The notes under the pieces are model-generated. The model worked only from the letters and a program-made list of their open reading frames with translations. It did not search any database and was not told the origin of the DNA. This document shows positions 5,393 through 38,879 of a stretch of 64,000 bases of DNA, piece after piece. The DNA is from Tricharina praecox (taxonomy: Eukaryota): assembly GCF_024521635.1 (NCBI RefSeq), contig NW_026250409.1:992001-1056000 (forward strand). The letters run 5' to 3'. Position numbers and translations under genes: made by a program. Every line of letters starts with the position of its first letter. Within the stretch, counting starts at the first letter, position 1.

Positions 5393-5427
5393 AAAGCAAA
5401 GCAAAGCAAAGCAAAGCAAAGCAAAGC
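5393..5427. repeat. (AAAGC)n microsatellite
   Basis: About 7 tandem AAAGC units in the 3' region of the ATP-grasp gene. Confidence 0.9.
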
Positions 5428-15582: not shown

Positions 15583-16553
15583 CTATGGACAGTCGGTGTT
15601 TTGGGGCACGAGAGCACCGTCGACTCCCAAGTCCATCGAATCCAGCAACTTCATGTCTGACGCATCGAGCTCGAAGGAATACGCCCCCGCATTCTCTCGG
15701 ATGCGTTGAGGATTGTCGCTCTTCGGCAAAGGGATGAACCCGTGTTGCAGACACCAGCGAATGAGTATCTGGCTCGGAGTAGCCGTTGAGTGCCGGGCGG
15801 CGATGCCGAGGATGGTGGGGTTCTTCATGAGAGTGCCGCGGACCAGAGGACAGTATGCTTCCACCTGGATCGCATTCTTCCGGCAGTACTCCACAATCGG
15901 CCGCTGTTGGCACAGAACGTGGCACTGGGATACAACCTTTGGTTATCCTGCTGATCTCTCTTGAACAGGAGAGTGCTCACCTCGATTTGATTCGCAACAG
16001 GCGGGAATGTCGCATAACTCTTCATCTCCTCGAGGTGTTTGACCCCGCTGCAATGCACCATCAGCAACGAGTTGGACGCTCAGCAAATGGTTACACACTA
16101 ATTGCTCACGCCGATAGCCCTCGTGCCACCCTCTTCGAGCAGATTCTCCAGGGCCAGCCACATCTCCCGACGTCCCTCGGGTCCACTGCTGGGAGTATGT
16201 ATCAAGAAGAGATCGACATATCCCAGACCGATCTCGCGAACGCTTCGCCAACATCTCTCGAGTGTCTTCTCCACACTTCCTTCCGGCAGCAGCAGCTTTG
16301 TCGTGATGAACACCTCGCTCCGAAGAATGCCCGACTCGCGCACGGCTTCTCCGACTTCTTTTTCGTTCTCATAGAACTGCGCTGTGTCGATGGCGCGATA
16401 TCCGCAGCGTAGTGCCTCTAAGCACGATTTTTTGCAGATGTCCGGGGGAGATTGGTACACCCCGAATCCAATACGTGGTCGTAGGATTGTCCCCCTGGAG
16501 TGGGGAATCTCGACGGTCGACTGGAGCGTCAAACGCTGCTCTGGGGCGGCCAT
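15583..16553 (-). CDS. Aldo-keto reductase (2,5-DKG-reductase-like), 2 introns
   Basis: IGFGVYQ; GYRAIDTAQFYENE (catalytic D, Y); FITTKL (K); DLFLIHTP (H); RAIGVSN; PVANQIE; QILIRWCLQHGFIPLPKS. Confidence 0.92.
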
Positions 16554-16680
16554 TTGATACTGGTACTGAGGCTTTAGGAGAGGACAAACAGTGGGGCGTT
16601 GGGCATCGAGGGTCTTATGGGGGATGTAGCCATAAGCCAAAAGAAAGGTGATCGGCCCATTCTAGGTTATTTTTCTTTGT

Positions 16681-17016: not shown

Positions 17017-20000
17017 ATGCAGTCTCAGATCCCGCACTTTTTCGTTGCTACTCTCGGGGATGCCCAGCGTATCAATGCTCGCACTCCTCATGGTATCACT
17101 ACTATCAACGAACTCCTCATTCGCCGAGCTAGAGATACTCCTGATGCAGTGGCCGTAGGGATGGCGATCCCACCCCAAGGCGGGAGCGAAGACGACGGGA
17201 GATGGGGAAGCATAGTTTACAGTCGGTCTCCTTGGATCCCAAGCATATGTGGAAGCAGTTGCTGATGCGGATATACCGTAGCGTATTCGCAACTTTTGAA
17301 AAGCACAACCGCCGCGGCTCACCGGCTCTCTGCCCTATTGCCGCCGGCAAAGAAGATTCCTGGCTCAAATGATGGTCCCACGGTTGCGATCCTGTCGGAG
17401 AGCTCATGGGATATGCTCATGTGCTTCTTTGGGCTGATCAGGATGGGATACACGGTTTTACTGATAGCGTGAGTTCATACCTTCGTATGAGTCCGTCTAC
17501 TGGCGCTGACAATGCAAAGCCCCCAATGTGACGCCCGGGCAATCCAGCACCTGGTCAAAAGCACTTCCTCAAAACTCCTTCTACACTCTCCCCCCCTGGC
17601 CGAGCTCGCATTCTCCGCGGCCCCGTGGTGCAAATACAGTGCCCTTCCCGCATACGAAAACGAAGATGCCCACTTCTCACATGACTGGTGGCCCACCCCA
17701 TCATTCGTCGATTCATCGACCGTGGCATATATTCATCACACTTCCGGAACAACCGGACTGCCCTCTCCAATCCCACAGAAACATGCCACTGCAACAGTCC
17801 ATCTGCCCTGCCTCCCTCCGCGAACAGCTATCTCGATGCTGACAATGACACCGTTGTATCATGCCGGCGTGGCGGACATGATGCGGTCGATGATGTCTTC
17901 TTCCATGATATGGCTGTTTCCTCCCACGGTCCCCATCACTAGTGGGAATATTCTCCGTGCAATCGACACGGCCGATTTGCGGCTTCCTGAATCTCCTGTT
18001 AATCTCTTTACTGCCGTGCCATACATTCAGAAAATGTGTCTGGAAGATCCAGCATGCTTGGCCGCGTTGCAGGAGATGGATATGGTTGGATACGGTGGTG
18101 CACAGCTCCCGGATCATGTTGGAGATGCACTAGTTGAGAACGGTGTGAATCTTGTCAGCAGGTTCGGTAGCACCGAATGCGGATGTATGTATGCCAGCCC
18201 TGTTACGCGTTGCTGTCGATTATGGGGGCTGAAATTGTCAGTCTTGATGAGCTCCTACCGCGATTTCGAAAACGACAAAGAATGGGAATATTTGAGAGTA
18301 TCCGCCGATTCGAAGAATCTCGTATTTGAGCTACGGGAGGATGGTGCTCGAGAGCTCGTCGTGAAACCTGGCTGGCCACATATGGTTCGTTCGCCTCAAC
18401 ACCGCGCCCTTGGCCTCTGTACCTATCTCACTCGTTTCCCAGGCAAAAACAAATCGTCCCGACGGTTCATTCGCGACCTCGGATCTTTTCCGCCCCCATC
18501 GCACCATCCCCCGGTTATATAAGTACCTTACACGCAGCGACTCGACGCTCGTCCTGCTGAACGGCAAAAAGTTCGATCCCACGCAGATCGAAGACGGCCT
18601 TCGGCGACTCGATATCGTCGAGGAGGCAATAGTCTTCGGTCAAAACAAGGAGTCGCCAGGTGTCTTAATCTTTCCCGCCCGCCCACATGTCGATGTGAAC
18701 AGCTTGATGCATAGCCTAGAAGGAATCAACTCGATGGTGCCGGCGTATGCTCGCATTCCGCCGGAGTTGGTGGTCGACATCGAATATGGCAGGGAGTGGC
18801 CGAGGAGTAGCAAAGGCCTTGCGCTGAGGAATCAGGCGGAGGAGGTCTTCCGGAAGGAGATCGAGGATGCGAGGAAGCGGTACGAGGGCGGTGATGTTGG
18901 CGTTGATGTTGGCGATACTAATCAAAATCCCACAAAGTTGGATGTAGGTGAGCTGGAATGGGTCGTGGCGCAGGTTGTAGAGGCAGTTGTGGGCAGAAAA
19001 CTTGGGAACGATGAGGACTTCTTTATGAGTGGAGTGGACTCTATAATGGCCACCAGAATTCGAAGATTGCTCATGAATAAACTTAAAAAGCCGCTCCCTA
19101 CAAATGTGGTCTTTGAACAGCGTACAATCAAGGGGTTTGATATTCTCCGTGTGTCTGATTTGGTTGGTGCTAACTCATTGCAGTCTCGTTTACTTTATAT
19201 CTACCGCCGCAGAAGTCGATATGGAAAAGAAGCATGAGCTACATGTCATGCAAGAGATGCTGAATAAATTCGCTGCGGAACCCAAGCCACCGGTTGTGGT
19301 AAGTTTTTCGCACATCTAAGCGCAGGCCTTATTCTGATAATCAATAGCTCCTGACAGGTGCTACGGGAGCCCTTGGTGCTCACATACTGCATGTCCTCGT
19401 TCAACTCCAGATTCCCAAGATAATCTGTTTGTGCCGCGCCTCCTCCTCGACGGTGGCCAAAGACCGACTCTTTGCCAGCCTCTACCAGCGTAAGATCCCC
19501 ATTGCCTGGTCCCGCGACACCGACGTCCGTGTCAGCAACGCCATCCTCTCAGAGCCTATGCTCGGTCTACAAGAGGACGTTTACACCGAGCTAGCCTCTG
19601 AGGTAACGGTAATCATCCACGCCGCCTGGCCCGTCAACTTCCTCGCGCCTCTCCCCTCCTTCGACTCCGCGCTCGCAGGCACAAAGAACCTCCTGCAGCT
19701 AGCAAATACCGGCGGCACCAAGAAGCGCATGGTATTCTGCTCGTCCACCGCATCCGTAATCCGGGCTCCCGCCCCAATCCGCGAAGAGCCCTCCTACGAT
19801 CCCTCGCACGCCTCGCCGCTCGGCTACAGCCGCTCGAAGTGGGTTGCGGAGGGGCTCGTCAGCCGTGGCGGCGGCGAGGTGGTCCGGCTCGGCCAGCTCT
19901 CGGGCGATACCCAAGCCGGCGTGTGGAACCCGGAGGAGGGATGGCCGCTGCTGCTGAAAACACTCGATCTCGTCCACTGCCTGCCGGAGTTGAGGGAGCA

Positions 20001-20491
20001 GGTGCAGTGGCTGCCAATTGATATTGCCGCCGATGCGGTCGTGAGAATCGCGCTTCGCCAGGGAGTCTACGAGGAGAAGAGGTTCTGGCATGTGCTCAAT
20101 AATAGGCCGTTGCCGTGGAGCACAGTGCTGCGCGCCATGGAGTTCTGGCGTGGTCAGGTTACCAAAGCTACGCCACAGGAGTGGGTAAGAAGGCTGGAGG
20201 TTTCCGAGAAGAACGGGGAAACAGTGAAGCTTTTGGGGTTGTGGAAAGATACGGTAACGCCCGTCCCTACTAATCCATCGAGATCAAGCTTGGAAGACTG
20301 ACTGATGTTGTTCTTCTCAGTATGGAGCGGTAAATGGAGGGAAAGCGGCGGCGGTGGTGAAAGAGCCCGTCTTTGAAGTCAAGAATATGGGCAGCCTGTT
20401 CCCCGGGTTTGTAAATGGCGTCGAGATCGACCAGGAATACATTCATACGGTTTTTAGAGCGCTGGGGATTGAGGGCAGATTGCCAAACTAG
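17017..20491 (+). CDS. NRPS-like A-T-R enzyme (carboxylic acid reductase type), multi-exon
   Basis: A domain YIHHTSGTTGLP, TPLYHAG, SRFGSTECG, FATSDLF, LVLLNGKK; T domain DFFMSGVDSI (Ppant Ser); R domain LLTGATGALG, IIHAAWPVNF, FCSSTAS, GYSRSKW, RLGQLSGD. No C domain. Confidence 0.92.
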
Positions 20492-21979: not shown

Positions 21980-22555
21980 TGTGAAGGGAGCGCGGGCTTG
22001 TATAGTTGCATTATGTAGGTACTGAGAGGCCCTCAATGGGTACGAGCAAATGTAGAATGTGATTCAGTCGAAACAGGACATTGATTACTCCGAGTGATAT
22101 TCCGCCCCAAAAATTCCCGGCGACAGCGAAGCACATTACTTGTCACGAGTTGTGCAGCAAGTGTAGCCAGTTGGTGGCTATTGCGGTTTTCTCGGCCGTG
22201 CCAAATGGTCGAAATGACGTCCGACGATCGAGGGTAAATCCACACGCCCACGACCAACGGATACCGTACCTACACATCCCTCATCCGGGGCGTATGATTG
22301 TCTTCCGATTCTTCGGAATAAGAAGAGCAGATTTAACGAGGCAACTCCAGTACATAGCCAGATGGAGGCGAAGCGATTCCACTAACCTCTAGGGCCGGAC
22401 TAAAACTAGTGGACCTCGCTACTGATCCGTCTGGTTTCATAGACTCCCTCACCGGTAGACTGTAGCACGGTGGCTTCACCTATACCAGTCAATGGCACAA
22501 TCACATGAAACAAAAACCATATAAAGAGCGCTAATAGCGGAATTGTTTCAACACA

Positions 22556-22628
22556 GCCTCGCTAGCTCAATCGGTAGAGCGTCAGACTCTTAATCTGAAG
22601 GCTGCGGGTTCGACCCCCGCGTGGGGCT
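22556..22628 (+). tRNA. tRNA-Lys(CTT), intronless
   Basis: Acceptor GCCTCGC/GTGGGGC; D-arm TAGCTCAATCGGTAGAGC; anticodon arm TCAGA-CTCTTAA-TCTGA; T-loop GGTTCGACCC. Confidence 0.95.
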
Positions 22629-23368
22629 GTCTATTTTACTGGCGTGGAGTTGGTTGGGTTGGGTTGGGCGAGCAGACGGGAACCGGGTTGGGTAACTTTT
22701 TGCTAAGACCGGCGATGAATCGGGTGAGTCATATCGGGTCACTCTGTAATTTCGGCTGAGGTGTTGGGCTTGGTCACAGATGTCACTCGTTGCGCTTACT
22801 CATGCTATCGTTTTGCATCGCTAACCATTGGGAGTGACAATGGTTACGCAGCCTCCACACTCTCAATAGTTGGCTTCCAGTGTGCCCGCCACACTTTGAA
22901 GCTGCATGCGTTGCCTTCTCGGTACAAATCACGACATTGATCTGACTTATGTACCTATTCGACTTCTGATAGGGGGTTTTGAACCCTTCTTCCACAGCCT
23001 ATCGGAAGATCTGCCTTTTGAAGTCTTGAACAGTCAGAAATTGCTGTGCCACAGTCACAGCTGCAGATTCTGTTTTGGTGGCTGCCATGCTGCAGTGGGT
23101 CCGTGGGCGAGAGTGTTTGGTGTTGGGTGTGGGATAATGGGTCGGACGATTGGGCGAAGCACTTAATGTGGACCATCGTAGACAACAAGAAAAAAAAGTG
23201 GATCATTCTCGCAATTATGGATCGAAAAACGGACTACCTATCCCAGATAAAACCCGTTCAAGTAAAGATACCGAAGAAAACCCCCCCAAAACAAACAAAG
23301 AGACCAAAAAGACCAAAAAGACCGTTACGCAATCGTTATCGACTCGTGGTACCCCCGCAATCAGTCCA

Positions 23369-26300
23369 CTAATTGTACTTGCAAGTAATAGTGATACCCT
23401 TCTTCTTGTCATCGGCGTCAATGGGAACATCGATAAACGTAGCCCTGATGGAGGTGTCGTTGGACACGGTGGAGCCAGTAGCGCCATCGGTGGTAGTGAC
23501 GCACTTCGTCGTGTCGACGTCGACCTCGTGCCAGATAATGACGGTGTACTGCTGGCCAATATCGCGCTTGAGTAAGTCGAGATTGTAATTGTCCCAGGCG
23601 GTGCGAATGGTGACGGTGCGAGTGGCGCCAGCGGTTCTCTTTTCGGTGTTAGTGGTAGGGAAGGATGGCATGAGGGGAGGGAACTTGCCTGGGCGATGAT
23701 CACCTCGCGGTATTCGCTCTTGGCCTCTTCATCCTCGTCGATGGCGAAATCGTCCTTCGGAATCACTCCCAGCTCGGGGTGCATAGGCACGGGGTTGGCT
23801 GAGTACTGCGGCAGTCCGGCCGGAGCGCTGGCACGGCTGATTCCATCGTCCAGGTACATGTGGTAGTCCTGCGAGAGCGGGCTGTCAGCGAAAGAGCACA
23901 TCGAGTAATGCGATGGATTTCTGGTTGGCTTACGCTGTTCTTGCCTGGATACACGTGCAGGGTGATGGGGTTCGCTTTGCGGTTCTCCAAGTCGGGAATC
24001 CACTGTCGGAGCTCAATCTGCGGAATGATTGCACCTGAATGTTTCCCGGTGAGTTATTACCTGAAGATATTGCGTTGATGATTGCGGGTACCCACCTTCC
24101 CTGATAAACATCGGCATCACGTATGGGATGTGCTCGTTATCGCCAAGTCTGATCTCGTCATCCCACTCCATGAAGGTTCCACCCTGGAGCTTTGCGCTCA
24201 GCCCCTTCCTCCGGCTAATCTTGAGACCGTCTCCATTCGGATCCTCGATGTGGTCGGGACGCAAGTTGAACACGAACCAGTTGTCGGGCTGGGGTAAGTA
24301 CAGCTGGTGCTTCTGCTTCGTCTCATTTTCCCCTACCTTGAGCTTCTCCGGGTACAGCCTCGGGCAGACTAGCAGGTCGTTGCGGACCATGTATTCGCGG
24401 TAAAGGTAGTTCGAGGCGTCTTTGTACAGACTGTCATCGTAGACGTCGGTCAAGATCTTCATCGCGGTCAGATGTGACTCCGATTGCAGTCGAATGGGGT
24501 ATAGCTTACCAAGGCTCTGGCAATGGGCATTCCAGTGATCTGGTTCTCGAACATGGCGTCGTAGAGGAGCTGCAAGAGGGTGTATCGAAGCTCTACAAAG
24601 TATTTGCACACAGGCTCTACCGAAAGGTACATCCTCTCGTCTTTCTTGAGTATATCATGCCATTGTGGGTTCCAGAAATGGTCCGTGTAAACGTAGGGTT
24701 CCTAAGGAATTTAGCTGGCAACCCACAGGAAAAACGCACAAAAAATTGGTTTACCTGGAAGAACTTCATGCCTGGTTTGCCGTGGTAGTGGTTTCTGTAG
24801 GCCTGTCAGTGTCTTTCCCCGATGGATGGTTGGGCTGAGTGATGGACTCACCGGAACCATGGAAGCATGGAGTAAGCACAGTACCAACGGATCACCAGCT
24901 CCGGGTCGGCCCACTGATCTTTGTTCAACGGCATGAAACCGCCCACATCAGCGCCTGTGATGACGCCTCCAGACAAACCGGATGCGAGAATCTGCGCAAC
25001 CGAGATCCGCAGGAAGTTCCAAGTGGAAGCGTTATCGCCGGTCCATAGACCAGCATATCTGTGCATGCCGGCGAAACTTCCACGCCCAATGATGAAGTTT
25101 CTTTTGCCTTTGCGAAGGTCCATGTCGTTCAGACCCTTGTATGTAGCCTTGTGAAGGTTGTAGCTGAAGAGTGACCACATTTCGATGGCTGCCTTATAGG
25201 GAGGGTATTTGCCGTCTTGGCTAGGGTAAACGTCGGTGCTGACCATCAGCCGGAAAGGAAGTCTGGAGACTGTCAAATGTGGATGCTCAGTGAATGGACT
25301 AGGGGAATATGTTCATACCCTTTCATGTCGCCGTATTCCTTAGCAAGGCAAGGGCTCGTCATGTCCTGCCAGATAAACTCAAGTCCTTGTTCTATGAGAT
25401 ATCGGTATTGCTCTCCCCACCATTTCCGTACAACTTCTCGGTTGAGATCGGGATAGAAGCCAGGCTAGGATTAAAGTCAGATCGTTAAAAAAGTCCCTCC
25501 CTGGGTGCATTGCTGGAGCAGGTTACGAACTGTTCCCAAGTCTTGACCGTAAGAGACACCGCCAATGAACTCCTTCTCCGAGTTGTATGCCTTGCTGAAG
25601 TCACTTCTAGTTATTAGTAATTGGCACTCGGTGGCAAAGATTTTGAGGGACTCACTACTCGGGAGTATAACCGGGCATCCTTTTTTGGGCGCTCTGAATA
25701 TCAGTGATCATCTCGCGCCTGCCGCCATCATAGTACATGTACTTTGCATCCCAGCTGTTTTTCCCTATGCCATCGGCGGTGTAGCGCTTGTCCATAATGA
25801 AATACCTAAGCAATGTCAGACATCTCATTGTAGAGTTTTGGGGGGTGGGATTCTTACTTGTTCTTCACCCCTTCGGAAAGGGTCTTGTAGCCATCGCCAG
25901 TGCAGTTGATGACAGGAGTGATATTCGTGCAAGCTTTGACGCCCATATTGCGCAGATCCCGAAACATCGCTTTCGGGTCAGGAAACTTGTCCGGAGCTGT
26001 GTTTATCGTGAATGTACGATATCGGTCCTGCAAGTCGACGTCGATATGCATTCCGTCGAGAGGAATCTTGCGGGCGCGATACTGATCCACTATACCGACT
26101 ACCTTTTTCTGAGTATCATAGCCATAACCTAGTAGATGGTTTCCGACTCAGTGTCAGCAAGCCACATCGTCTTGGTAGTCTGTGGGAGTGATGGATTGGT
26201 TATAGTACTTACATCCTTGATGGTGCCCTAGGACGTATCTAGGCTTCAGTCTGTTACGACCGATGATTGAGGTGTAGAGGTTTATGATATCGGGGATGTC

Positions 26301-27427
26301 ATTGCCGGCCATCACGAAGTACTGTAAACTGCCGTACTTCGTACCCACGCGAATTTCGCCGTTGTTGCGCTTCCCGAAGTCGATGCTGATCTGGGAATAG
26401 TTGTCGACGAAGGTGGCCACCTTAGAGCCCAAGTTCTGGTGGGTATCGACCTCGATCCAGAAAGGCTCCGAGTGGTAGAGCGGTTCCCTGCTGTCCCCGG
26501 CTCCTTTTCCGTAGACACCACTGTACATCATGTTGTCGTAGTCTAGTACTATGGTTTAGCAATGCATTTTTGGAGGCGTGTGGGCGTGTAATAGGTAGGC
26601 GGATGACCTCCAATACTTACCAAAGTAGTTCATGTACGTGCTGTACTTGAACAGAGACATTCCACCCTGCTCGCCAAATCCGATATAGCGGGCAGCGCCG
26701 GGTTTGCACACGGAGAGGATCGCGTTTGTAGTTTCGCCCTTCTGGACCCAAGAGAGTCCATTCGGCGCCGTCTTCCAGATGATGCATTGGGTGTCAAGGT
26801 TGACTTTGATCGCCTCACTGGCGTTGAGGGCGGGAACAGCGTCATCCGGGTCAAGGTGCGGCGGAACGGCACGGACTGCGATGATACGGAAGGGAGCCTT
26901 CTGGACAAAGAGGCGGACCTCCCACTTGCCGTCCTTTTTGGCTTTCCGATCGGCGGCGCTCTGATACACCATAGACTCCAGGCAAAAGTACTTGCCATCG
27001 TCAGAGGGCTTGACGGAGGTGTCCCAGAAAATGTCCTCGAACTTGTCAAGACAGTCACGCAGCTCTGTGACGGTATCTCGGACGATGGTACGACTTGGAT
27101 GTTGTCAGCTACGGAGAAACATGAAGAAAAGCAAAAAAAGTGAAAATAATCGGCTACCTACGAATTGTAGTCGTTGTATTCGGCTGGAGTCTTTATAAGT
27201 GGACTGAAACGGATCTTCCAGACCTTGGGCCGTATAAACTGCACTAGGAGCAGCTTGTCGTCATTGAACCTGAAGATAGCTCCAGTCTTGATGCTGGGCT
27301 GTTTGGGATCGTTGTCTTCCACTCTGTACGTGATGGAAGTCGGGGTATTGAACGATTTCACGGCATAGGCGTCAAAGAACGTCTCCGCCGGAGTGAAGGT
27401 GTAGTTGTCCTGGTTGGGGTCATTCAT
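23369..27427 (-). CDS. Alpha-1,4-glucan lyase (GH31, 1,5-anhydro-D-fructose forming), many introns
   Basis: VQFIRPKVWKIRF, REPLYHSEPF, FVDNYSQISIDFGK, LKPRYVLGHHQG, PLDGMHIDVDLQD, nucleophile motif FIWQDMTSP, YNLHKAT, GLWTGDNAS, YLDDGISR. These segments match my recollection of Morchella glucan lyases. No signal peptide. Confidence 0.88.
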
Positions 27428-27798
27428 TGTGTTGAATGAACTCGGCGAAGAAGGAGAGGACAGTGGGGTCAACGCACCGGGGGAGGGGGATAGCACTACT
27501 TATTTACGTAGGCCGCTGAAGGCCATGTACCTGGATCCTCAAGAGTTCCAATTGGCGGCACACGACACGTTGTCCTCATCTTCCTCCGCAGGAGCTCCTC
27601 AATCCACTAAGGGAATTTCATGACGAGGTGCAGCCCGCCCAAGCTGGAGAATCGCTGAGAGTGGGAGCTTTCATCGGATGGTGAATATTCCCAATGCAAC
27701 ACTTAAATTTATTTTGCGCGCACCAATCAGCAGGCAGAAGTGGTTGTTTCAGTTGTTTCAGTTGTTGAGGGAGTGAATGAGTACACGAGGAGGTATAC

Positions 27799-27854
27799 GA
27801 GTAGAAGAATGTGAGTAGAAGAATGTGAGTAGAAGAATGTGAGTGGAACAATGT
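27799..27854. repeat. 14-bp tandem repeat GAGTAGAAGAATGT x4
   Basis: Three perfect copies and one degenerate copy upstream of the lyase ATG. Confidence 0.9.
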
Positions 27855-29671
27855 GCGGGGTTGCTCAGCCCTAGATGCGTACAACCATTCATGCAGCTGG
27901 GATCGCTAGCTTGGAACTCTAACGCACACACCTTGAAGCATTTCAGGTTTTTGCAGCGCCATTGGCATTGAGTTTACATCCCTCTACACATGCGGACCAG
28001 TTCACTAGAGGTTTTGAAGTATCAATACTCAACACACGCTGACGGCACGTTCGGGTGAAAACGAAGCCATTGGAGGAGATTTCGGACACTTACGATTGAA
28101 TCTGGCTCACTGAGATGCCTCAGATGCTCCTCCATCGGTGGTGTTGGGTGGAAGCAACACGAGACGATATGCCGGCCGCACGGGACGGGCGACGACGCAC
28201 GACACGCGGCTCATCACTCGTGCGTATCTTGCGGGCTCGGCGCACGGACCATCCACGTGTCCGACAGGCAGTGGGAAAGGCGCCGGCGCCGGCGGAGGGC
28301 AGGGGAGGCACAATAGGGCCGCCCGTAGACTGATGAATCGTGATTGGATAGTGGACGGGAACCGGGGGTAGGTGTCCAGTATTGCCATGATCTAACTACT
28401 TGGACGGGTCGTATGCGATTAGATGATTATTAACCACCTAGATAGACCAAAAAACAGTCTGACAAGTCACCAACGCACCAGGTGCCGGGCCGACGAAAGG
28501 TGCATCAGTACTCTACATGCGATGCTATCGGCGCGATCGAGCTTCTCACCAAACAACTGCGACTTTGAGGTCAAATCCAGCTGAAACTGCAATGCAATGG
28601 AATGCAGATCCCCGGCGCTGATTCATTGCAGTGAGTGTGCGACTTCCCGGCCTGAAATCGGACCGATACCCGAGTCTGCAGCTTCTTGGACGTCCATACC
28701 CAACATGCACACATCTCGGCGACGCAAACTAGTCGGGTGGAGAATCGCAATCGGTTGGTGCAACCCACGCCATTCTAGTACTATGCATTCTGCTGGTAAC
28801 TAGTCTGCGCTTGTGCTTCGGCATCTACCGGTACTCCATGCAGAGCGGGGTTGATGGTATTTTGCTCATCCGTGGTCAATCGAACCCCGCCGGACGGATC
28901 ACGCAGACTCCCCGCGTTGCACTCTGGGGAACTCCCGGTCAACCATCTGATTGTGATGTCTCGATAAAATTCACAAAGACGTATGGGCGAATTGCCGGGC
29001 TCGAGCTCCTGCCTGGCACAGGAACTTTGCAGCCCAGCCCAGCACAGCTTGATGTTCGTATGCTGTCTGGCTCCAACCCCCCCGTTGTGATATAGCGGCG
29101 GCCGATCTAGAATCTGCAGGAGACGTTGGTTCACCGCAATGACCCTCTTTGAGTGGGAGCTTTACCGTTTTCGTGTCCGTTTCCCCGTTCCTGCAACGCC
29201 AGAACCCGTGCACAATGTGACGGTTTCGTGTGCCGACTTCGGATGCGGCTTCGGATTGCATCGTTTCAATCAAGCAAGCTTACGCGAATTGCCAGCTTTT
29301 CCAAAGCTGACCACGTTGCGGGGGTCTCTTGTTGGGCCGAGAACCAAAAGCCATGAACGGGGACAGCGGCCCGGCCGTCTGCTGCTCTCGACCGCCGACT
29401 GCATGGGCCAGGCCAGATGAGTGTCATGCAGCTGTGCTGATAGCAGTTACTAATCGCTATTTGTTGGCCGCCGTGAGCTTGCAGGTTCTCCAGCCGCTTC
29501 GATATGCACCGTCATGGCCGCGGGTGAGATGGCGGGCTTGCCGTCTAGCTGGGCCGCGTAATGCCCGTGCCTGGAAGACTGGACACTAATGCCGGTGCTT
29601 GGAGGGAGAACTGGAAACGATGAGAGGTACATAAGTCGCCAGAGCCAGATTTTGTGCTTCTAAAGTTCGAA

Positions 29672-29996
29672 TCGAATCGATCCTCCGGACACTTGAATGC
29701 CGGACGGCACAAGATCATGAATGCAGTCAGTTTCAGAATATCAGAGATCAGAGATCAAATATCAAGGAATCAAAGGTTGAAGAGGGTAGTCACACCTCCA
29801 AACTTGATGCAACTTGGTCAATCTTTCAGCTCGAATCGATTCTCCGGACACTCGGATGCCGGACGGCACAAGATCATGAATGCAGTCAGTTTCAGAATAT
29901 CAGAGATCAAAGATCAAAGATCAAGGAATCAAAGATTGAAGAGGGTAGTCACACCCCCAACCTTGATGCAACTCGGTCAATCTTTCAGCTCGAATC
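29672..29996. repeat. 159-bp tandem duplication (2 units)
   Basis: Units start TCGAATCGAT at 29672 and 29831; GCCGGACGGCACAAGATCATG at 29699 and 29858; few substitutions between units. Confidence 0.92.
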
Positions 29997-30464
29997 TTAT
30001 CGTTGCAACTTCGCTGCATCTGTCACCATCATGACCTATCTGGGCCGTCCACTGGCGGAAAAACAAAACGTCCTTACGCTGTGCGTCTTTGTGGGGAAAC
30101 TGTGAAAACTGCTCCTACGATCAAATGTCAGTGGGCTGGTAGGATGACGATCACTGTGTCTCAATTCAGCCGGAAGAACTGAGCTCCGTTGATGCCCAAA
30201 CGATTACTATTGGCCGTCGACAGTTTCTTTTGCGAATCTGCAACTCAGCCGATCTGCAAACCGGCCGGATCAAGCCTGCTTGTGTGGTTACCACGACACG
30301 CGGCTATACCCCCACCAAACAGCTTGTCATGCTCTTCGGGGGTTTCACAGTATACTGCAGCCTCAATGAGGGCAGTCGTGGGATACACCGGCGTGGACAT
30401 CCTAACCAACGGGATAAAGGGAAAGCTCCTCCCAATCACGTAAATCCCACGGCCAGCAATCATC

Positions 30465-33414
30465 ATGTCTTCCGGAATAACACCCATCACACCGTCTTTC
30501 CGCTCCTCGATCATTGAGGAGAAAAGGACGGACGGCTATTGGGTAGAAACATTCTACCTCCACAAAGCAGACAAAGTCCCAGGCATCATTGCGTGGGTCC
30601 CCCCAGTGGTCTTGTGTCGTTTCCGGCGTGGCTAACTATTGGTGTTCAGTTACGGTCTCGGAGATGGCATCGCAAAGACTAGCAAGATCGAGTTCCTTGA
30701 AAATCCAATCATGGAACAGAAAGAGGGAGTTTTTCTCGATAAACGTATGTTCTCATATACCGCTTAAACGTCATATCATATTGGAGCCATGGAAAACTTA
30801 CGAATGTATCGTAGCTTGGACGAAGTACACGATCGCGGAGTTCGAATCGCCTGTAGCAGTGGTGGCAGCAGACGTCGACCAAGACGGTTTCACGGACCTG
30901 CTCATCTGTCATGATTATGGTCCTCACATGCTACGGTGCTTGGTAGACGGCGGTCACATAAGCTGGCTGAGGAATCCTGGAAGAGACAAGCTAGGCGGTG
31001 GTGTTTGGGAGCAACGATATGTCGGAAGGTGGCCGGCTATGCATCGACTGAAGGCTGGGTATTTCACACAAAAGTAAGTTTCTCACGCTTTAATAATTTT
31101 ATACAAGGGACAGTGGAATATCTGACATACCAATTCCCTGCAGGTCGTTCCTAGAAGTGATGGCTATGTCCGGTAAGACTCTAGTTTTGACAGTGTTGTC
31201 CCGCAGTGCTGACATTCGCCCACTTACGTGAAGTTGTCCATGGCCCGCAAGACTTGGTAAGATTGTTGCCATGAATTTGTCTCTAGAGAATCTCTGACTC
31301 GTTCTGGCAGACTTCCGCGATTCCGGTGATCTTGTTTCAGGCTCCCGAGAAAGTGCTGGAAGCGTAAATATTCCCTTTCCATCAGCTCCTCCGTATCATT
31401 TAACACTGGAGTAGATTGGAGTGGCCTCGCAAGATCGTCGATGACAGTAGCTTCACCGTGATTCACGATGCGGCTCAGAAAAAGTACTGGACCTTCTCCT
31501 CCGTAGTGGAAATTACTAACATCGAGTGAGATTCCATGGGCTCAACGGCCTCGATTCCCTCGTGATCGCTTCGAGGGAAGGTTTGAACTGGCTCTATTAC
31601 GCGGACCAAAAATGGAACATTGAGCACATCACCGAAGGCGAGCCTAAGGCGGAGGGACAGTCCGCAAGCAACCTTGATCCACCGGACTACTGGGGCAGTG
31701 GTTGTGTCGATGTGGGAAGGGTTGGCGATGATCCATTCGCGTACGTCGCGTCCATCGATCCTTTCCATGGAAACATGGTCTGTGTATATACCAAGGCAAA
31801 TCCTACTATGGATGGAACAAAAGGATGGACAAGACACGTTTTAGACGTGTTCGGATCGCCGGCTCAACTCCAGAAGCATGGAGAGGGTACGACGGTTATA
31901 GCTTTAGTATGAGTTGAAACTTGCTGACAATCCCATAGGCCCTGGACACTACGTCGTTACGGGCGACTTCGACGGTACGTAGTACACGGGACGATAATAT
32001 TCACTGCAATTTACTGATATCGTGTATGTAGGTGATGGGGATGACGAGTTCCTTGTGGCGATGTTCGGTACTCCGGACAAAACATCTGGGCCCTCGCCGA
32101 ATAAGGTATGTACTGAGCAGTCTACAACTAGGAAAACATGCTAATAATTATTTATATAGGGAGTCTTCTACTACAAAGCGATTGATCTCGACAAGGGCTT
32201 GTTCGCCAAGTACAAGGTTGCCGAAGAATCCACCGCCCGCATTGCTATCGGGTATGTAACAAGCTCCACCATACCAATGTATACCGCTTATCTGGATTCT
32301 AACCCATTCGTCTACAGTAACTTCGGTGGTAGAGGCTTGCTCGACTTCGTGGGCATCAAATATCGTGTGCCGAACTATTACGAGGAGGAAAATCCAACTG
32401 TGAGTGTGTACTACAACGACTTCGCTAATGCCCATATTGCACACGATGCCTCCGTCGTTCCCACACTCTGGGACGACGAGGGTTTGGTGTACCTACCCAA
32501 CCCCGACACAGCACCACAAACCTGCTCCCTGGACCTGATCGAGGTCGCAAACTATGCTCTATCCGTCGTCGTCCTCCCGCCAAAGACAACATTCGCAGGC
32601 TTGCCGGGCATCGGCTACAAAGTCCTGTTTGGAGCTGTGATGGACGGAGAAAAAGAACGCCGTGCAATGGATGTTCCACCCTTCACCGAGCAATCCGTCG
32701 TGATGGACAACGACGAATTACGAACTCTGGACGATATAGGCTCCGTTCTCCTGTTGTTCAGTCCTCTGAAGTGCGACTCATCGTCGACGCCTGGGAAATG
32801 GCCTACGGCAGAGGATGTACCCGTGAAGGTCACCTTCAAGCCGACGCGAGGACTTCCGGTCCCTCCGCTCCATTTCAAGAAGGTAGACAAATGCTGGTGG
32901 GGAGCCGGGTTTCCAGACATTAACTTCCACAACATGACTGGATTCACATTCCGGTTCCACGATCAAACATTCCTGGCGCATCTGCAATTCTGGACAGCCG
33001 GTAACTAAATGCCCCACCTACTCCTACCGCAGGCCTATGTACTAACAGCAGCCAGGCAACAACGTCAACTGCGGCGTGCACAACCACACGGACGCCTCCT
33101 TCGCCGAAATCCACATCGGGCTCTCAGCCGGCACCGGCACCGGCGGCATGTGGCGTCTCAAGACGGAGTACGAGGACACGCCTGCAGACGAACTCCCAAA
33201 ACTCGGGCCCGAGGCGTTCGACAAGCTGGTATTGCCGCCGCTCGCCGAGCACGGCGGTGTCTGGCGCAGAGATTCGTACGGAAAGCCAATCCTGCGCGGA
33301 AACGGCACCGTGGACTACCCCTTCCATAAGTGGCAGGCCGGAGAAGACGACTGTGTCGATATTTGGGCCGCCGTCGAGTTCAACCCAAAGGGGAAATATA
33401 AGTGGGCGTTTTGA
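30465..33414 (+). CDS. Aldos-2-ulose dehydratase/isomerase (AUDH, pyranosone dehydratase) homolog, ~12 introns
   Basis: Spliced product: RTDGYWVE, AYGLG, SWLRNPG, MHRLKAGYFT, YWGSGCVDVGRVGDD, PFHGN, GDFDGDGDDEFLVAM (beta-propeller); then cupin segments HLQFWTAG, HNHTDASFAEIH, GTGTGGM, EHGGVW, DYPFHKWQAG, DIWAAVEF. Collinear with my recollection of Phanerochaete AUDH. Confidence 0.9.
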
Positions 33415-33991
33415 TGTGAGTCTGTGCTCTGCTTTGACATGTTTGTCGCTGACTGGGCTGGAGCAGTGTGTGGATTCTGGAGGAGGGGATTTGCTACAGA
33501 AATTGCAGTGAATCGGGGGCTCCAGATTGAGGAATATACCTGGGAGGGATCATTTTTACCTTGATATTTTACCGCTTTTGCTATCTACTGTGAATATTTC
33601 CGCCTCCTCGTGTTTGGACTGAAGTGACTTCCGCTACGTGATTTGCTACGATGGCCCAGTAGTTGTAAAGTAGGGGCAGGTGGGGCTCCATGTGCCCAGG
33701 CAGCCATTGCTGTGAAACCATGGCCGTTATGTATAAATGTCAGCACTGCCCGAAAGCCGTGATCCGGGATCCTTCATGTGCACGCGCAGGTTCAGGTGCA
33801 GGGCCGAGATGTGCTCTAGATGCGCACGCGGAGAAATCCCCAATTCCGGCGCTAACTAGCCCTTCCCTGTCAGCTCAAATTCTACTGCACGGCTAAACCT
33901 TCACCCCCACTACCGTATCTACAGTACACAGAGTAGGTAGATACACAGAGTACGCCACATCCACAACCTCCACCCCGCCGCGATCATTACA

Positions 33992-35086
33992 ATGCTGGCC
34001 CTCCCTCGCCTCCGCTTCCTCCTGCCGCCCGCCGTGCGCGCATTCACACTGTCGGCCGCCAGCTTCGCCGGCGGGCCGCGACTACCCCCGCGGATGATAC
34101 TCGACGAAGCAGACTTCACCGAGGTGTTCCTGAAGGGCAGGTAACTACTTACCCACACACGCCCGCCACATACACGCGGGCTCTCGCTTACACATCTGTC
34201 TCTCTCCAGCGGCCCCGGCGGGCAAAAAATCAACAAGACCTCCTCGGCGGTGCAACTGATCCACAAGCCTACCGGTATTGTCGTAAAGTCGCAGGAGACG
34301 CGGTCTCGCTCACAGAACCGGAAGATAGCGCGGCAGCTGCTGGCGGAGAAGGTGGAGCACGCGCTGATGGGCGACGAGTCGCGCGTGTCGAAGAAGTGGC
34401 AGATCGAGAGTGCCAAGCGCGCCAGCTCCATGAAGAAGAGCGCCCGCAAGTACCGCAAGCTCGACGCGCAGAAGGAGAAGGTCGAGCTGCTGAAGGATGA
34501 GTGGCAGCGGTATATCGACTCAAGGAAGAAGCTCGGCCTCGAGATCCCCGTGGATGCCCACCTGGGTCCCAAGTTGCCCGAGGGAGGGACGAAGTACTTC
34601 AGGAAGGGGAGTAAGACCCAGCTGGAGTGGCCGGATGAGGAACCGAAGATTAGGAGGCTCATAAGGGATAGTAATGGCAACAAGGTGGATTTCATCATAG
34701 ATGATGAGAAGCTGGTCATGGAGTCGGACATTATCGGGCCAAAGAGGGAAAGGTTGACGATTAATGCCAAGGCGGTCAAGGCCTCCGATTGGATGTGGGA
34801 GATGCCGGGCATAGTCGAGGTCGCCTTGCAGCATCAGGATGATTATCCGAAGAATGTGGTACAGAGTGGCGCTAAGGATGAAGTCGCCCTCATGTACCGT
34901 GGGATGTCCGGGTTCGACTATGTCAGGGAGGAGGAAAAGCAGGAGAGGCTAGCTATGCTCAAGGCAGCGACGGAAGTGGCAGTGGAAGCAGACAAGGCGA
35001 AGAAGGATATGAAGGCGCCGCCCAAGGTATTGGAAAAGAATACAAGCCTATCGGAGGAGCGCAGTCTTAGACGGAGCGCAGTCTGA
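33992..35086 (+). CDS. Mitochondrial RF-1-domain peptidyl-tRNA hydrolase (C12orf65/Rso55-like) with a C-terminal extension, 1 intron
   Basis: Arg-rich presequence; spliced FLKGS|GPGGQKINKTSSAVQLIHKPTGIVVKSQETRSRSQNRKIAR. Confidence 0.88.
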
Positions 35087-38529: not shown

Positions 38530-38879
38530 GGTTGCGCTTATGCCGTGGGCGCAGTGGTGAGGACTTGCGGTGTGTGTATCTTTGGGTGTTGGGGGGTGAA
38601 GAAGATAGATGGAGTTCGCGTGTTTCTTCTGTGGTTGGTAGTAGGTTGTCGCGTTGGCGTCTGTGAAGTTAAGGTGAGGCTCTCTTGGTCGCAAGGCTGC
38701 CAAGCGACCGGTCCCAATGGCGTAAGACCCCTGAACCCAAGAAGGCTCTCGAGAGCTAAAGCCACTGTGGTAACAACGGGAAATCTGTAGCAAGCTCCAA
38801 ACAACAGCTTGCAACCGAAACCTGCAACACGCCAACTCCACGATTGTCGACTCCACGATTGTCGGAACACTCACGCATC

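What the first reader, a model, noticed from the sequence alone, without database searches (positions are those of the whole stretch)
23369..33414. Head-to-head glucan lyase + AUDH: a two-gene anhydrofructose/microthecin pathway cluster
Seen: a GH31 gene (-) and an AUDH-like gene (+) diverge from a shared ~3 kb intergenic region, and neither has a signal peptide. Established: alpha-1,4-glucan lyase converts glycogen/starch to 1,5-anhydro-D-fructose, and aldos-2-ulose dehydratase converts that to ascopyrone M and microthecin. This pathway is known biochemically from morels, related Pezizales and red algae. Inference: the two consecutive enzymes form a co-regulated, glycogen-fuelled, stress- or wound-activated chemical defence cluster. 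It has no PKS/NRPS backbone, so standard cluster finders would probably miss it. I do not recall this physical linkage being described.
Basis: partly seen in the sequence, partly recalled or inferred. Interest (0 to 1): 0.88.

Follow-up and report, generated by a model that had tools for sequence, protein, structure and literature searches.

The report
Conserved glucan lyase–AUDH fungal gene pair
An ascomycete fungus carries, back to back, the genes for two enzymes that probably turn stored glycogen into the sugar-derived antibiotic microthecin or a related pyrone, and the same pair sits together in several distantly related fungi.

Summary
A 14-exon GH31 gene lies on the minus strand (27427 to 23369, 1087 aa). 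A 13-exon AUDH-like gene lies on the plus strand (30465 to 33414, 751 aa). Their start codons are 3037 bp apart. Spliced RNA contigs from two studies and a soil metatranscriptome confirm the introns.

The GH31 is of the lyase type. It has the lyase Asn (N459 equivalent) and the WQDMT nucleophile motif. Its clade's profile hits the red-algal glucan lyase 2X2H best. A tree puts it with Pezizales homologs, apart from hydrolase-type GH31.

The AUDH homolog matches P. chrysosporium AUDH over residues 18-731 and keeps both putative catalytic motifs. It lacks the C-terminal lectin domain.

The pair is adjacent in 8 of 12 same-species comparisons (six genera, three classes). One metagenome lineage has it intact and head-to-head; a second has it decayed. 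No other neighbour is conserved.

Enzyme activities, the end product, stress induction and a defence role are untested. Nine literature searches found no description of this linkage. The closest known arrangement is the basidiomycete pyranose 2-oxidase–AUDH pair. Verdict: real, conserved two-gene module; a new variant of a known kind; moderate interest.

The parts
23369..27427 (-). GH31 alpha-1,4-glucan-lyase-type gene, CDS of 14 exons, 1087 aa. Exons: 27427-27162, 27093-26621, 26542-26213, 26128-25858, 25805-25656, 25603-25531, 25464-25319, 25262-24852, 24794-24755, 24701-24510, 24456-24096, 24034-23934, 23868-23689, 23638-23369.
   Evidence: Hand-built model checked. tblastn of the Rhizina homolog P0002 covers its residues 3-1056. 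Pfam PF01055. RNA joints and contig pieces. The spliced length of 3783 nt equals X1 contig 1.
27428..27781 (-). 5' leader of the GH31 transcript. A 14-bp tandem repeat (4.1 copies) lies just upstream at 27799-27855.
   Evidence: X1 contig 1 piece 27162-27781. Tandem repeat.
23204..23368 (-). 3' untranslated region of the GH31 transcript.
   Evidence: X1 contig 1 piece 23204-23638.
25923..25925 (-). Codon of Asn425 in the TNIT motif. It is the equivalent of Asn459 of the Gracilariopsis lyase; GH31 hydrolases have Ile here.
   Evidence: Alignments. Numbering check on P0345. The meaning of N459 comes from PMC12441222 section 3.1. 109 of 127 aligned clade rows have N; 17 have gaps and 1 has S.
25363..25365 (-). 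Codon of Asp555, the catalytic nucleophile, in the WQDMT motif. It is the equivalent of D553 of the algal lyase.
   Evidence: Hydrolase-type representatives have W[N/I/T]DMNE instead.
30465..33414 (+). AUDH-like gene (short form without lectin domain), CDS of 13 exons, 751 aa. Exons: 30465-30592, 30650-30744, 30815-31073, 31144-31172, 31234-31256, 31311-31363, 31415-31483, 31531-31886, 31939-31974, 32032-32105, 32160-32251, 32318-33000, 33056-33414.
   Evidence: Model. 11 of its 12 introns are listed as RNA joints; the twelfth is supported only by loose ends at 31363 and 31415. Pfam PF22301 and PF18637. The family profile matches 4A7K with E 4.9e-132.
31042..31044 (+). Codon of His151, the equivalent of His155 of P. 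chrysosporium AUDH. His155 is the proposed base of the dehydration site in the propeller; that role is recalled from the 2012 structure paper, which I did not see.
   Evidence: Alignment. H is present in 24 of 29 aligned rows, with 5 gaps.
33079..33114 (+). Cupin metal-binding motif H641-x-H643...E650-x-H652. This is the putative isomerase site.
   Evidence: Aligned to the same motif of 4A7K. Each residue is present in 25 of 29 rows, with 4 gaps.
27428..30464 (.). Spacer of 3037 bp between the two start codons. It holds both 5' leaders and the divergent promoter region. In X2, the stretch from 27713 to 28514 has depth of only 6-13.
   Evidence: No Pfam hit on its ORFs. No Rfam match at E up to 0.1.
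28445..29726 (-). Low-abundance transcribed stretch inside the spacer, with a 52-nt intron at 29114-29165 whose ends read CT..AC on the plus strand, so it is spliced on the minus strand. It is either an upstream-initiated GH31 leader or a separate non-coding RNA.
   Evidence: X2 contigs 6 and 7 have depth 22-26, against 1951 for 29880-30565. X1 contig 2 shows the joint.
29672..29996 (.). Tandem repeat of 159 bp, 2.0 copies, 94% matches, within the AUDH 5' leader. The X1 RNA contig carries one unit fewer (it skips 29697-29855).

Best explanation
The two genes form a self-contained, divergently transcribed module for the anhydrofructose route of glycogen breakdown.

The cytosolic GH31 enzyme is an alpha-1,4-glucan lyase. 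It forms the usual glucosyl-Asp555 intermediate. It then eliminates rather than hydrolyses, helped by Asn425, and releases 1,5-anhydro-D-fructose from the non-reducing ends of glycogen.

The neighbouring short AUDH homolog (beta-propeller plus two cupins, no lectin domain) dehydrates this 2-keto sugar to ascopyrone M at its propeller site (His151). It probably isomerises ascopyrone M to microthecin at its cupin metal site (H641, H643, E650, H652).

What is shown: the gene structures, transcription and splicing, the family and clade assignments, the conserved motifs, and the conserved linkage. What is inferred: both activities, the end product, co-regulation from the shared spacer, and an antimicrobial or stress role.
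For: GH31 is of the lyase type:
- A profile of 22 fungal homologs hits the Gracilariopsis glucan lyase 2X2H best, at 260.7 bits. The best single-domain hydrolase, GANAB 8D43, scores 206.7 bits.
- The window has Asn at the N459 position. The held review says this residue assists the base-catalysing nucleophile and is Ile in hydrolases (PMC12441222 section 3.1).
- Within the clade, 109 of 127 rows have N, 108 of 127 have WQDMT, and 127 of 127 have the acid/base Asp.
- In a 117-row FastTree, the 66 rows with a hydrolase-type motif plus 2 rows without a motif form one side of a branch with SH-like support 100. The window lies on the other side, in a 100-supported 18-row clade. That clade holds the Rhizina, Tuber, Peziza and Morchella homologs and all six AUDH-adjacent homologs placed in the tree.

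AUDH homolog:
- The family profile matches 4A7K with E 4.9e-132 over residues 18-731.
- The window protein is 50-54% identical over its full length to most of the roughly 750-aa homologs.
- The His155 equivalent and the cupin motif are conserved.

Linkage:
- Accession numbers or locus tags are consecutive or one apart, on contigs of the same length, in 8 of 12 same-species comparisons: three Monosporascus species, C. truncatum, Lasiosphaeris hirsuta, Tricladium varicosporioides, Halenospora varia and Lepidopterella palustris.
- L003/L005 carry an intact head-to-head pair with the same signatures and a short AUDH.
- No other window ORF has a homolog in those flanks.

Expression:
- Spliced contigs of both genes occur in X1, X2 and the soil metatranscriptome X5.
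- Contig word depths are similar for the two genes: 6191 and 5805 in X1, and about 2500-5400 per bin in X2 (one AUDH bin of overlapping contigs reads 11133). The outermost flanking bins (22500-22900 and 33728-34500) read 8-126. The tool warns that contig depth cannot rank genes, so this is only a hint.

Localisation: no signal peptide by a crude hydropathy test.
Against: - No activity was measured.
- No sequence of a biochemically characterised fungal lyase was available. The tie to the Morchella enzymes therefore rests on an unnamed Morchella sextelata homolog (P0119, 45% identity).
- Pairwise, the window GH31 is only 26% identical to the algal lyase (189 bits). It scores higher against a hydrolase-type representative, P0256 (29%, 275 bits).
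- Single exons rank hydrolases above 2X2H in the PDB search. For one exon, 2X2H is not among the 28 hits.
- The AUDH homolog lacks the lectin domain of the only characterised AUDH, whose natural partner is pyranose 2-oxidase and whose natural substrate is glucosone.
- Linkage is absent in 4 of 12 same-species comparisons.
- In L007/L010 the adjacent GH31 has lost its nucleophile (WRAMT). In L008 it is truncated, while the AUDH gene looks full length. AUDH can therefore persist without a working neighbour.
- None of the 20 AUDH hits comes from Pezizales, the order in which the pathway was described. That search is word-limited, so this is weak.
- Adjacency in named genomes is inferred from accession order, not read from DNA.
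Confidence: 0.68

Rival explanations
1. The first step is the same but the output or purpose differs. The short AUDH homolog is a plain anhydrofructose dehydratase that stops at ascopyrone M. That product is then tautomerised elsewhere to ascopyrone P, or catabolised. On this reading the module serves glycogen mobilisation, redox or stress metabolism rather than microthecin-based defence.
For: The homolog lacks the lectin domain and is only distantly related to the bifunctional P. chrysosporium enzyme: the exon-level match to 4A7K has E 2.8e-14, and it is 38% identical to the 900-aa homolog P0139. A separate anhydrofructose dehydratase and an ascopyrone tautomerase were purified from Anthracobia melaloma; I saw only the title, in a reference list. 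Both transcripts are abundant in two ordinary RNA data sets with no known stress. STRE motifs are not enriched in the spacer: 0.66 per kb against 1.77 per kb in the window.
Against: The cupin metal motif of the putative isomerase site is fully conserved in the window and in 25 of 29 family rows. That argues the second activity is retained. No tautomerase candidate is conserved beside the pair.
Confidence: 0.2
2. The GH31 is a hydrolase or transglycosidase with an unusual active-site motif, and the AUDH homolog acts on another 2-keto sugar such as glucosone. The pair would then process a different carbohydrate.
For: Pairwise similarity to a hydrolase-type GH31 exceeds that to the algal lyase. 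Exon-level PDB searches rank hydrolases first. The characterised AUDH works naturally on glucosone from pyranose 2-oxidase (PMC4256170, passages).
Against: The Asn and WQDMT signature is shared with the solved lyase and is absent from all 66 rows of the hydrolase-type clade in the tree. No GMC oxidoreductase or pyranose-oxidase domain was found among the 188 ORFs of at least 110 aa scanned across the window. Conserved adjacency of two enzymes known to act consecutively is most simply explained by the known pathway.
Confidence: 0.08
3. The adjacency has no functional meaning: two unrelated genes that happen to be neighbours.
For: Linkage is missing in 4 of 12 same-species comparisons. The GH31 partner has decayed in one metagenome lineage.
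Against: Adjacency recurs in six genera of three ascomycete classes and in this window, while every other neighbour differs. Head-to-head orientation is kept in both metagenome lineages that could be read.
Confidence: 0.04

Closest known systems
Pyranose 2-oxidase plus pyranosone dehydratase (AUDH) gene pair of wood-decay basidiomycetes, the route to cortalcerone
   Same: It is a two-gene unit. An enzyme that makes a 2-keto sugar sits immediately beside an AUDH-family dehydratase that turns the sugar into a pyrone antibiotic. The arrangement is reported as conserved in several fungi (PMC4256170, passages).
   Different: Here the first enzyme is a GH31 lyase acting on glycogen and giving 1,5-anhydrofructose. 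It is not a GMC oxidase acting on glucose and giving glucosone. No GMC domain is in the window. The AUDH is a 751-aa form without the lectin domain. The hosts are ascomycetes.
Anhydrofructose pathway as described biochemically in Morchella, Anthracobia and Gracilariopsis
   Same: The same two consecutive reactions are proposed: alpha-1,4-glucan to 1,5-anhydrofructose, then to ascopyrone M and on to microthecin or ascopyrones (review passages in PMC12441222; PMC2974679, passages).
   Different: That work is enzymological. I found no statement that the genes are linked. The key papers by Yu and co-workers are not held, so I could not read them. The named linked pairs are in Sordariomycetes, Leotiomycetes and Dothideomycetes, not in morels.
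Gracilariopsis lemaneiformis alpha-1,4-glucan lyase (PDB 2X2H)
   Same: GH31 fold, nucleophile Asp in a WQDMT motif, Asn459 equivalent, acid/base Asp.
   Different: Only 26% identity over 774 aligned positions, and a separate clade in the tree.
Phanerochaete chrysosporium aldos-2-ulose dehydratase/isomerase (PDB 4A7K)
   Same: Collinear over the propeller and cupin domains (residues 18-731). The His155 equivalent and the cupin His/Glu motif are conserved.
   Different: The window protein ends where the C-terminal lectin domain of the 900-aa enzyme begins. It is distantly related: the exon-level match has E 2.8e-14.

Membership tests
GH31 alpha-1,4-glucan lyase (EC 4.2.2.13) | GH31 catalytic TIM-barrel domain | tested here: met
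   PF01055 scores 99.9 bits against a cut-off of 23.5 on exon ORF 24851-25312. PF21365 scores 24.1 against 24.4, which is borderline.
GH31 alpha-1,4-glucan lyase (EC 4.2.2.13) | Catalytic nucleophile Asp (D553 of the algal enzyme) and acid/base Asp (D665; the acid/base role is recalled) | tested here: met
   Window D555 and D646. In P0345, index minus 50 gives N459, D553 and D665.
GH31 alpha-1,4-glucan lyase (EC 4.2.2.13) | Asn at the N459 position, which is Ile in GH31 hydrolases | tested here: met
   Window N425 lies in a TNIT motif, as in 2X2H. Hydrolases aligned there have Ile or Val. The significance comes from PMC12441222 section 3.1. 109 of 127 clade rows have N.
GH31 alpha-1,4-glucan lyase (EC 4.2.2.13) | Groups with known lyases rather than with hydrolases | tested here: met
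   The clade profile hits 2X2H best. In the FastTree, 66 hydrolase-motif rows plus 2 rows without a motif are split from all WQDM rows with support 100, and the window lies in a 100-supported clade with the Morchella homolog. Caveat: no characterised fungal lyase sequence was in hand, and pairwise scores do not discriminate.
GH31 alpha-1,4-glucan lyase (EC 4.2.2.13) | Releases 1,5-anhydro-D-fructose from alpha-1,4-glucans | not testable with these tools
   Needs an enzyme assay.
Aldos-2-ulose dehydratase/isomerase (AUDH) | AUDH beta-propeller and AUDH cupin domains, collinear with 4A7K | tested here: met
   PF22301 and PF18637 score above their cut-offs. The family profile matches 4A7K with E 4.9e-132 over residues 18-731.
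Aldos-2-ulose dehydratase/isomerase (AUDH) | Proposed catalytic His155 of the propeller site (role recalled, paper not seen) | tested here: met
   Window H151. H is present in 24 of 29 rows, with 5 gaps.
Aldos-2-ulose dehydratase/isomerase (AUDH) | Cupin metal-binding His/His/Glu/His motif | tested here: met
   Window H641, H643, E650 and H652. Each is present in 25 of 29 rows, with 4 gaps.
Aldos-2-ulose dehydratase/isomerase (AUDH) | C-terminal lectin domain of the 900-aa enzyme | tested here: not met
   The window protein is 751 aa and its alignment to 4A7K ends at residue 731 of 900. The AUDH genes in L003 and L007 also stop 8-10 residues after the same C-terminal motif.
Aldos-2-ulose dehydratase/isomerase (AUDH) | Converts 1,5-anhydrofructose to ascopyrone M and microthecin | not testable with these tools
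   Needs an enzyme assay.
Fungal metabolic gene cluster | Linkage of the genes conserved across distant taxa while other neighbours change | tested here: met
   8 of 12 same-species comparisons are adjacent by accession order. Head-to-head in L003/L005 and L007/L010. No other shared neighbour.
Fungal metabolic gene cluster | Co-expression of the members | tested here: inconclusive
   Both genes are transcribed in X1, X2 and X5, with similar contig depths. However, there are only two cultures' worth of data, and contig depth cannot rank genes.
Pyranose 2-oxidase plus AUDH (cortalcerone) pair | A GMC-family pyranose 2-oxidase gene next to the AUDH gene | tested here: not met
   No GMC oxidoreductase Pfam hit among the 188 ORFs of at least 110 aa across the 64-kb window.

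The most novel reading that the evidence does not exclude
The GH31 lyase and short AUDH head-to-head pair is an old, self-contained anhydrofructose module spread through Pezizomycotina. It would be the ascomycete counterpart of the basidiomycete pyranose-oxidase-AUDH cortalcerone pair. On this reading glycogen serves as a ready precursor store for a pyrone antibiotic in far more fungi than the few Pezizales where the chemistry was seen. The lectin-less AUDH clade would be the so far unassigned gene for the ascomycete anhydrofructose dehydratase.
Probability: 0.5. Interest if true: 0.65.

Novelty: new variant of a known kind. Interest (0 to 1): 0.55.

Why it matters
The anhydrofructose pathway is known mostly from enzyme purification in a few morel relatives and red algae. 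Its distribution, regulation and physiological role in fungi remain open.

A conserved two-gene unit gives a simple genomic marker for the pathway. It suggests the pathway exists in plant pathogens and saprobes such as Colletotrichum truncatum, Monosporascus and Lasiosphaeris.

It also offers a candidate gene for the ascomycete anhydrofructose-dehydrating enzyme. And it makes the proposed stress or defence role directly testable by knocking out two adjacent genes.

Finally, it shows that AUDH-family enzymes have been paired at least twice with different producers of 2-keto sugars. That is a small, clear case of modular assembly of a backbone-less metabolic cluster.

Tried and rejected
- Whole genome: none is held for this window, so no genome-wide paralog or synteny search was possible.
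- The first homolog search used the poorly conserved N-terminal exon and found nothing.
- Papers on the lyase structure, the GH31 subfamily classification and the alpha-glucosidase/lyase review are not held. The role of N459 was taken from a 2025 review instead.
- The look-up of sequencing runs listed no holder on record as RNA. X1 and X2 were labelled 'RNA?' as a guess. I treat them as RNA only because their contigs lack the introns.
- X3 gave only three short, poorly matching pieces near 22561-22628. It was not used.
- The ESM Atlas search with an AUDH exon gave only scores of 0.81-0.84 to unrelated bacterial clusters, so it gave no lead. The TRAPPC9 ORF pointed only to Ascomycota.
- The search of earlier findings returned nothing for this genome or for the key words.
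- STRE (AGGGG) motifs are not enriched in the spacer. This gives no support for stress elements and is a weak test.
- Rfam found no match in the spacer. Its ORFs have no Pfam hit.
- I looked for a conserved third gene, because one accession lies between the pair in Tricladium and in the newer C. truncatum annotation. No window ORF of at least 40 aa outside the two genes matches the metagenome loci. Pfam hits in those flanks are all different from the window's neighbours: MIP channel, multicopper oxidase, FAD monooxygenase, fungal kinase, TauD, methyltransferase.
- The first GH31 model used the acceptor at 26548 (1089 aa). It was rejected in favour of 26542 (1087 aa), because only that matches the RNA contig length and the homolog spacing.
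- For AUDH intron 4, the alternative acceptor at 31206 was rejected on the RNA joint 31172/31234.
- No complex prediction or structure prediction was run. No binding claim is made, and homology to solved structures is already clear.

Full report
**What is there.**

The window is eukaryotic DNA with short spliceosomal introns. A TRAPPC9 ORF points to Ascomycota. No whole genome is held for it.

On the minus strand a GH31 gene runs from the ATG at 27427 to the stop at 23369-23371. I built a 14-exon model by hand. I corrected one acceptor, so that exon 3 starts at 26542 and not 26548, giving 1087 aa.

On the plus strand an AUDH-like gene runs from the ATG at 30465 to the stop at 33412-33414. It has 13 exons and encodes 751 aa.

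Pfam on single exon ORFs gives PF01055 (GH31 TIM barrel, 99.9 bits) for the first gene. For the second it gives PF22301 (AUDH propeller) and PF18637 (AUDH cupin, profile positions 2-308).

The finding's coordinates are exactly the two stop codons. The start codons are 3037 bp apart.

**RNA evidence.**

One search for sequencing runs gave two holders labelled 'RNA?' as a guess (X1 and X2, from two studies) and soil metatranscriptome runs.

When laid on 22500-34500, the contigs of X1 and X2 lack the introns. Fifteen joints are listed, 4 in GH31 and 11 in AUDH, and every one coincides with a predicted intron. Sixteen more joints were not shown.

- A soil metatranscriptome contig (X5) confirms the one non-canonical GC-AG intron at 23639-23688.
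- The twelfth AUDH intron (31364-31414) is supported only by loose ends.
- X1 contig 1 is 3783 nt long. This is exactly the predicted spliced GH31 transcript from 27781 to 23204.
- The AUDH exons also add up to the lengths of the X1 contig 2 pieces.

Both genes are therefore real, intact, transcribed and correctly modelled.

Contig word depths are similar for the two genes: 6191 and 5805 in X1, and about 2500-5400 per bin in X2 (one AUDH bin reads 11133, from overlapping contigs). The outermost flanking bins (22500-22900 and 33728-34500) read 8-126. The tool states that contig depth cannot rank genes, so I take this only as a hint of joint high expression.

**The spacer.**

The 3-kb spacer is not plain promoter.

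- GH31 RNA extends to 27781, a leader of about 354 nt.
- On the AUDH side, contigs extend upstream to 28630 (X1) and 28445 (X2).
- In X2 the stretch 28445-29726 has depth 22-26, against 1951 for 29880-30565.
- A 52-nt intron at 29114-29165 has CT..AC ends, so it is spliced on the minus strand. There is thus a rare minus-strand transcript. It is either a GH31 leader initiated far upstream or a non-coding RNA.
- A 159-bp tandem repeat (2.0 copies, 29672-29996) lies in the AUDH leader. The X1 contig has one unit fewer.

The spacer ORFs have no Pfam hit. There is no Rfam match.

**Is the GH31 a lyase?**

The closest database proteins to the catalytic exon are fungal GH31 proteins of about 1050-1110 aa. 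The best named one is from Rhizina undulata, at 74% on the exon and 52% over the full length. Many carry automatic 'alpha-1,4-glucan lyase' names.

A profile of 22 of them hits the solved Gracilariopsis lyase 2X2H best, at 260.7 bits. GANAB scores 206.7 bits. The 250.8 bits of 9KZ6 come from a protein with two catalytic domains.

A held review states that in GH31 lyases the nucleophile D553 acts as the base with help from N459, and that N459 is Ile in glycosidases (PMC12441222, section 3.1 read in full). The PDB chain index plus 11, or the index of the 1088-aa representative P0345 minus 50, reproduces N459, D553 and D665.

The window protein has Asn425 at that position in the same TNIT motif. 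Aligned hydrolases have Ile or Val there. Its nucleophile Asp555 sits in WQDMT, as in the algal lyase.

Among 127 aligned rows (the window plus 126 homologs):
- 109 have the Asn; 17 have gaps and 1 has Ser.
- 108 have WQDMT.
- All 127 have the acid/base Asp.

A profile search of 1.84 billion representatives gave a graded series. High scorers carry WQDM-type motifs. Lower scorers carry W[N/I/T]DMNE.

In a FastTree of 117 rows, 66 hydrolase-motif rows plus 2 rows without a motif form one side of a branch with SH-like support 100. All WQDM rows lie on the other side. The window sits in a 100-supported 18-row clade with the Rhizina, Tuber, Peziza, Morchella, Dacryopinax and Rhizoctonia homologs and the six AUDH-adjacent proteins placed in the tree.

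Several points count against this reading.
- Pairwise, the window protein is only 26% identical to the algal lyase, and it scores higher against a hydrolase-type representative.
- Single exons rank hydrolases above 2X2H.
- I had no sequence of a biochemically characterised fungal lyase.
- The tree has SH-like support only.

**The AUDH homolog.**

The window protein is 50-54% identical over its full length to most of the roughly 750-aa ascomycete proteins found. It is 38% identical to a 900-aa one.

A profile of 14 of them matches P. chrysosporium AUDH (4A7K) with E 4.9e-132 over residues 18-731 of 900. The propeller and both cupins are therefore present. The C-terminal lectin domain is absent.

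His155 of 4A7K is, as I recall from the 2012 structure paper's abstract (not seen here), the proposed base of the dehydration site. It aligns with window His151 and is H in 24 of 29 rows, with 5 gaps.

The cupin His-x-His...Glu-x-His motif is conserved as H641, H643, E650 and H652. Each residue is present in 25 of 29 rows, with 4 gaps.

**Is the linkage conserved?**

The two homolog lists share species, and contigs of identical length. Exact look-ups gave accession numbers and locus tags.

| Species | AUDH homolog | GH31 |
|---|---|---|
| Monosporascus sp. GIB2 | RYP05666 | RYP05667 |
| Monosporascus sp. MG133 | RYP24301 | RYP24300 |
| Monosporascus ibericus | DL764_001483 | DL764_001484 |
| Lasiosphaeris hirsuta | KAK0716080 | KAK0716079 |
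| Lepidopterella palustris | OCK81474 | OCK81473 |
| Halenospora varia | KAH6664083 | KAH6664084 |
| Colletotrichum truncatum | KAF6780990 | KAF6780991 |
| Tricladium varicosporioides | KAH8648036 | KAH8648034 |

The first seven pairs are consecutive. The Tricladium pair is one apart, as is the C. truncatum pair in its later annotation.

The pair is not adjacent in four species:
- Monosporascus sp. CRB-8-3, where the AUDH is a fragment on another contig.
- C. tamarilloi, C. fioriniae and C. filicis, where the GH31 models are fragments of 408-621 aa on other contigs.

That makes 8 of 12 comparisons adjacent, across six genera in Sordariomycetes, Leotiomycetes and Dothideomycetes. Adjacency here is inferred from accession order, not read from DNA.

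For DNA-level evidence I scanned metagenome contigs with the AUDH profile, which gave 17 loci. Five of them have 10 kb of upstream flank.
- L003 and L005 are 99.9% identical to each other. They carry a full GH31 (51% identical to the window's, with the WQDMTSP and TNIT signatures) on the opposite strand 1.4 kb upstream of a short AUDH.
- L007 and L010 are 99% identical to each other. They have the same head-to-head layout, 2.6 kb apart. However, their GH31 has lost the nucleophile (WRAMT) and part of the barrel.
- L008 is about 95% like L007 and keeps only the first 105 or so codons of the GH31.

No other window ORF of at least 40 aa has a homolog in these flanks. The flanking Pfam domains differ from the window's neighbours. 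The conserved unit is therefore exactly two genes, and in one lineage the lyase partner is decaying while AUDH persists.

**Mechanism.**

The most likely reading (confidence about 0.68) is the known anhydrofructose route. The lyase, cytosolic by a crude hydropathy test, releases 1,5-anhydrofructose from glycogen. The AUDH homolog dehydrates it to ascopyrone M and probably isomerises that to microthecin.

Gene structure, expression, family placement, motifs and linkage are shown. Both activities, the end product, co-regulation and any defence or stress role are inferred. A crude count of STRE motifs in the spacer shows no enrichment.

The main rival keeps the first step but has the lectin-less enzyme stop at ascopyrone M, or has the module serve metabolism rather than defence.

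**Comparison with what is known.**

The enzymes and the pathway are known biochemically (review passages).

The closest published genomic arrangement is the pyranose 2-oxidase gene lying immediately beside a pyranosone dehydratase (AUDH) gene in Phlebiopsis gigantea and several other wood-decay fungi, which suggests a route to cortalcerone (PMC4256170, passages). The window has no GMC oxidase domain among the 188 ORFs scanned. This is therefore a different pairing of the same second enzyme family.

Nine full-text searches found no paper describing lyase-AUDH linkage. For example, no paper holds both 'glucan lyase' and 'aldos-2-ulose dehydratase'.

The library lacks most subscription journals. 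The primary papers on the pathway and on both structures were not readable. An earlier mention cannot be excluded.

**Verdict.**

This is a real, expressed, evolutionarily conserved two-gene module. It is best described as a new variant of a known kind, the AUDH-containing sugar-to-pyrone pair, built from two known enzyme families. Interest is moderate (0.55).

It would not astonish a specialist, since the two enzymes are known to act in sequence. It does extend the likely range of the pathway well beyond morels. It gives a candidate gene for the ascomycete anhydrofructose dehydratase. And it makes the physiological role testable.

Noticed in passing
window 17491-20298 (+): An NRPS-like gene with adenylation, thiolation and reductase domains (AMP-binding, AMP-binding_C_3, PP-binding, NAD_binding_4) lies about 3 kb beyond the 3' end of the GH31 gene. 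Next to it is an aldo/keto reductase at 15586-16661 (-). Neither has a homolog beside the pair in the metagenome loci.
   Followed up: partly
window 8295-9838 (-): A gene like 3-dehydroquinate synthase (DHQ_synthase N- and C-terminal domains). It stands alone rather than inside an AROM-type fusion, so it could be a sugar-phosphate cyclase.
   Followed up: no
window 43210-44586 (+): An ORF of 459 aa with integrase zinc-binding and integrase core domains, both below Pfam's cut-offs. It is probably a retrotransposon remnant.
   Followed up: no
window 28445-29726 (-), intron 29114-29165: A rare spliced minus-strand transcript inside the spacer. The X1 assembly merged it with the plus-strand AUDH transcript into one contig. 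It has no Pfam or Rfam match.
   Followed up: partly
window 29672-29996 and 27799-27855: A 159-bp tandem repeat (2.0 copies) lies in the AUDH 5' leader, and the X1 RNA contig has one unit fewer. A 14-bp repeat (4.1 copies) lies just upstream of the GH31 transcript end.
   Followed up: partly
L007 about 5000 (-); L010; L008 7615-7967 (-): In one metagenome lineage the GH31 next to AUDH has Arg-Ala in place of Gln-Asp at the nucleophile motif and a disrupted barrel strand. A 95%-identical relative keeps only its first 105 or so codons. The AUDH gene looks full length in all three.
   Followed up: partly
database clusters of P0131: In the Colletotrichum acutatum complex, 541-aa proteins named 'formyl-CoA transferase' fall in the same 90%-identity cluster as the 755-aa AUDH homolog. 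They carry the accession next to it (for example KAK1447900 and KAK1447901). This suggests a mis-split or fused gene model, or a second partial AUDH copy.
   Followed up: no
window 38760-41808 (+), 56245-57918 (+), 59638-63540 (-): Ordinary housekeeping neighbours: a GH63 mannosyl-oligosaccharide glucosidase, a GH3 glycosidase, and the TRAPP II subunit Trs120/TRAPPC9.
   Followed up: no
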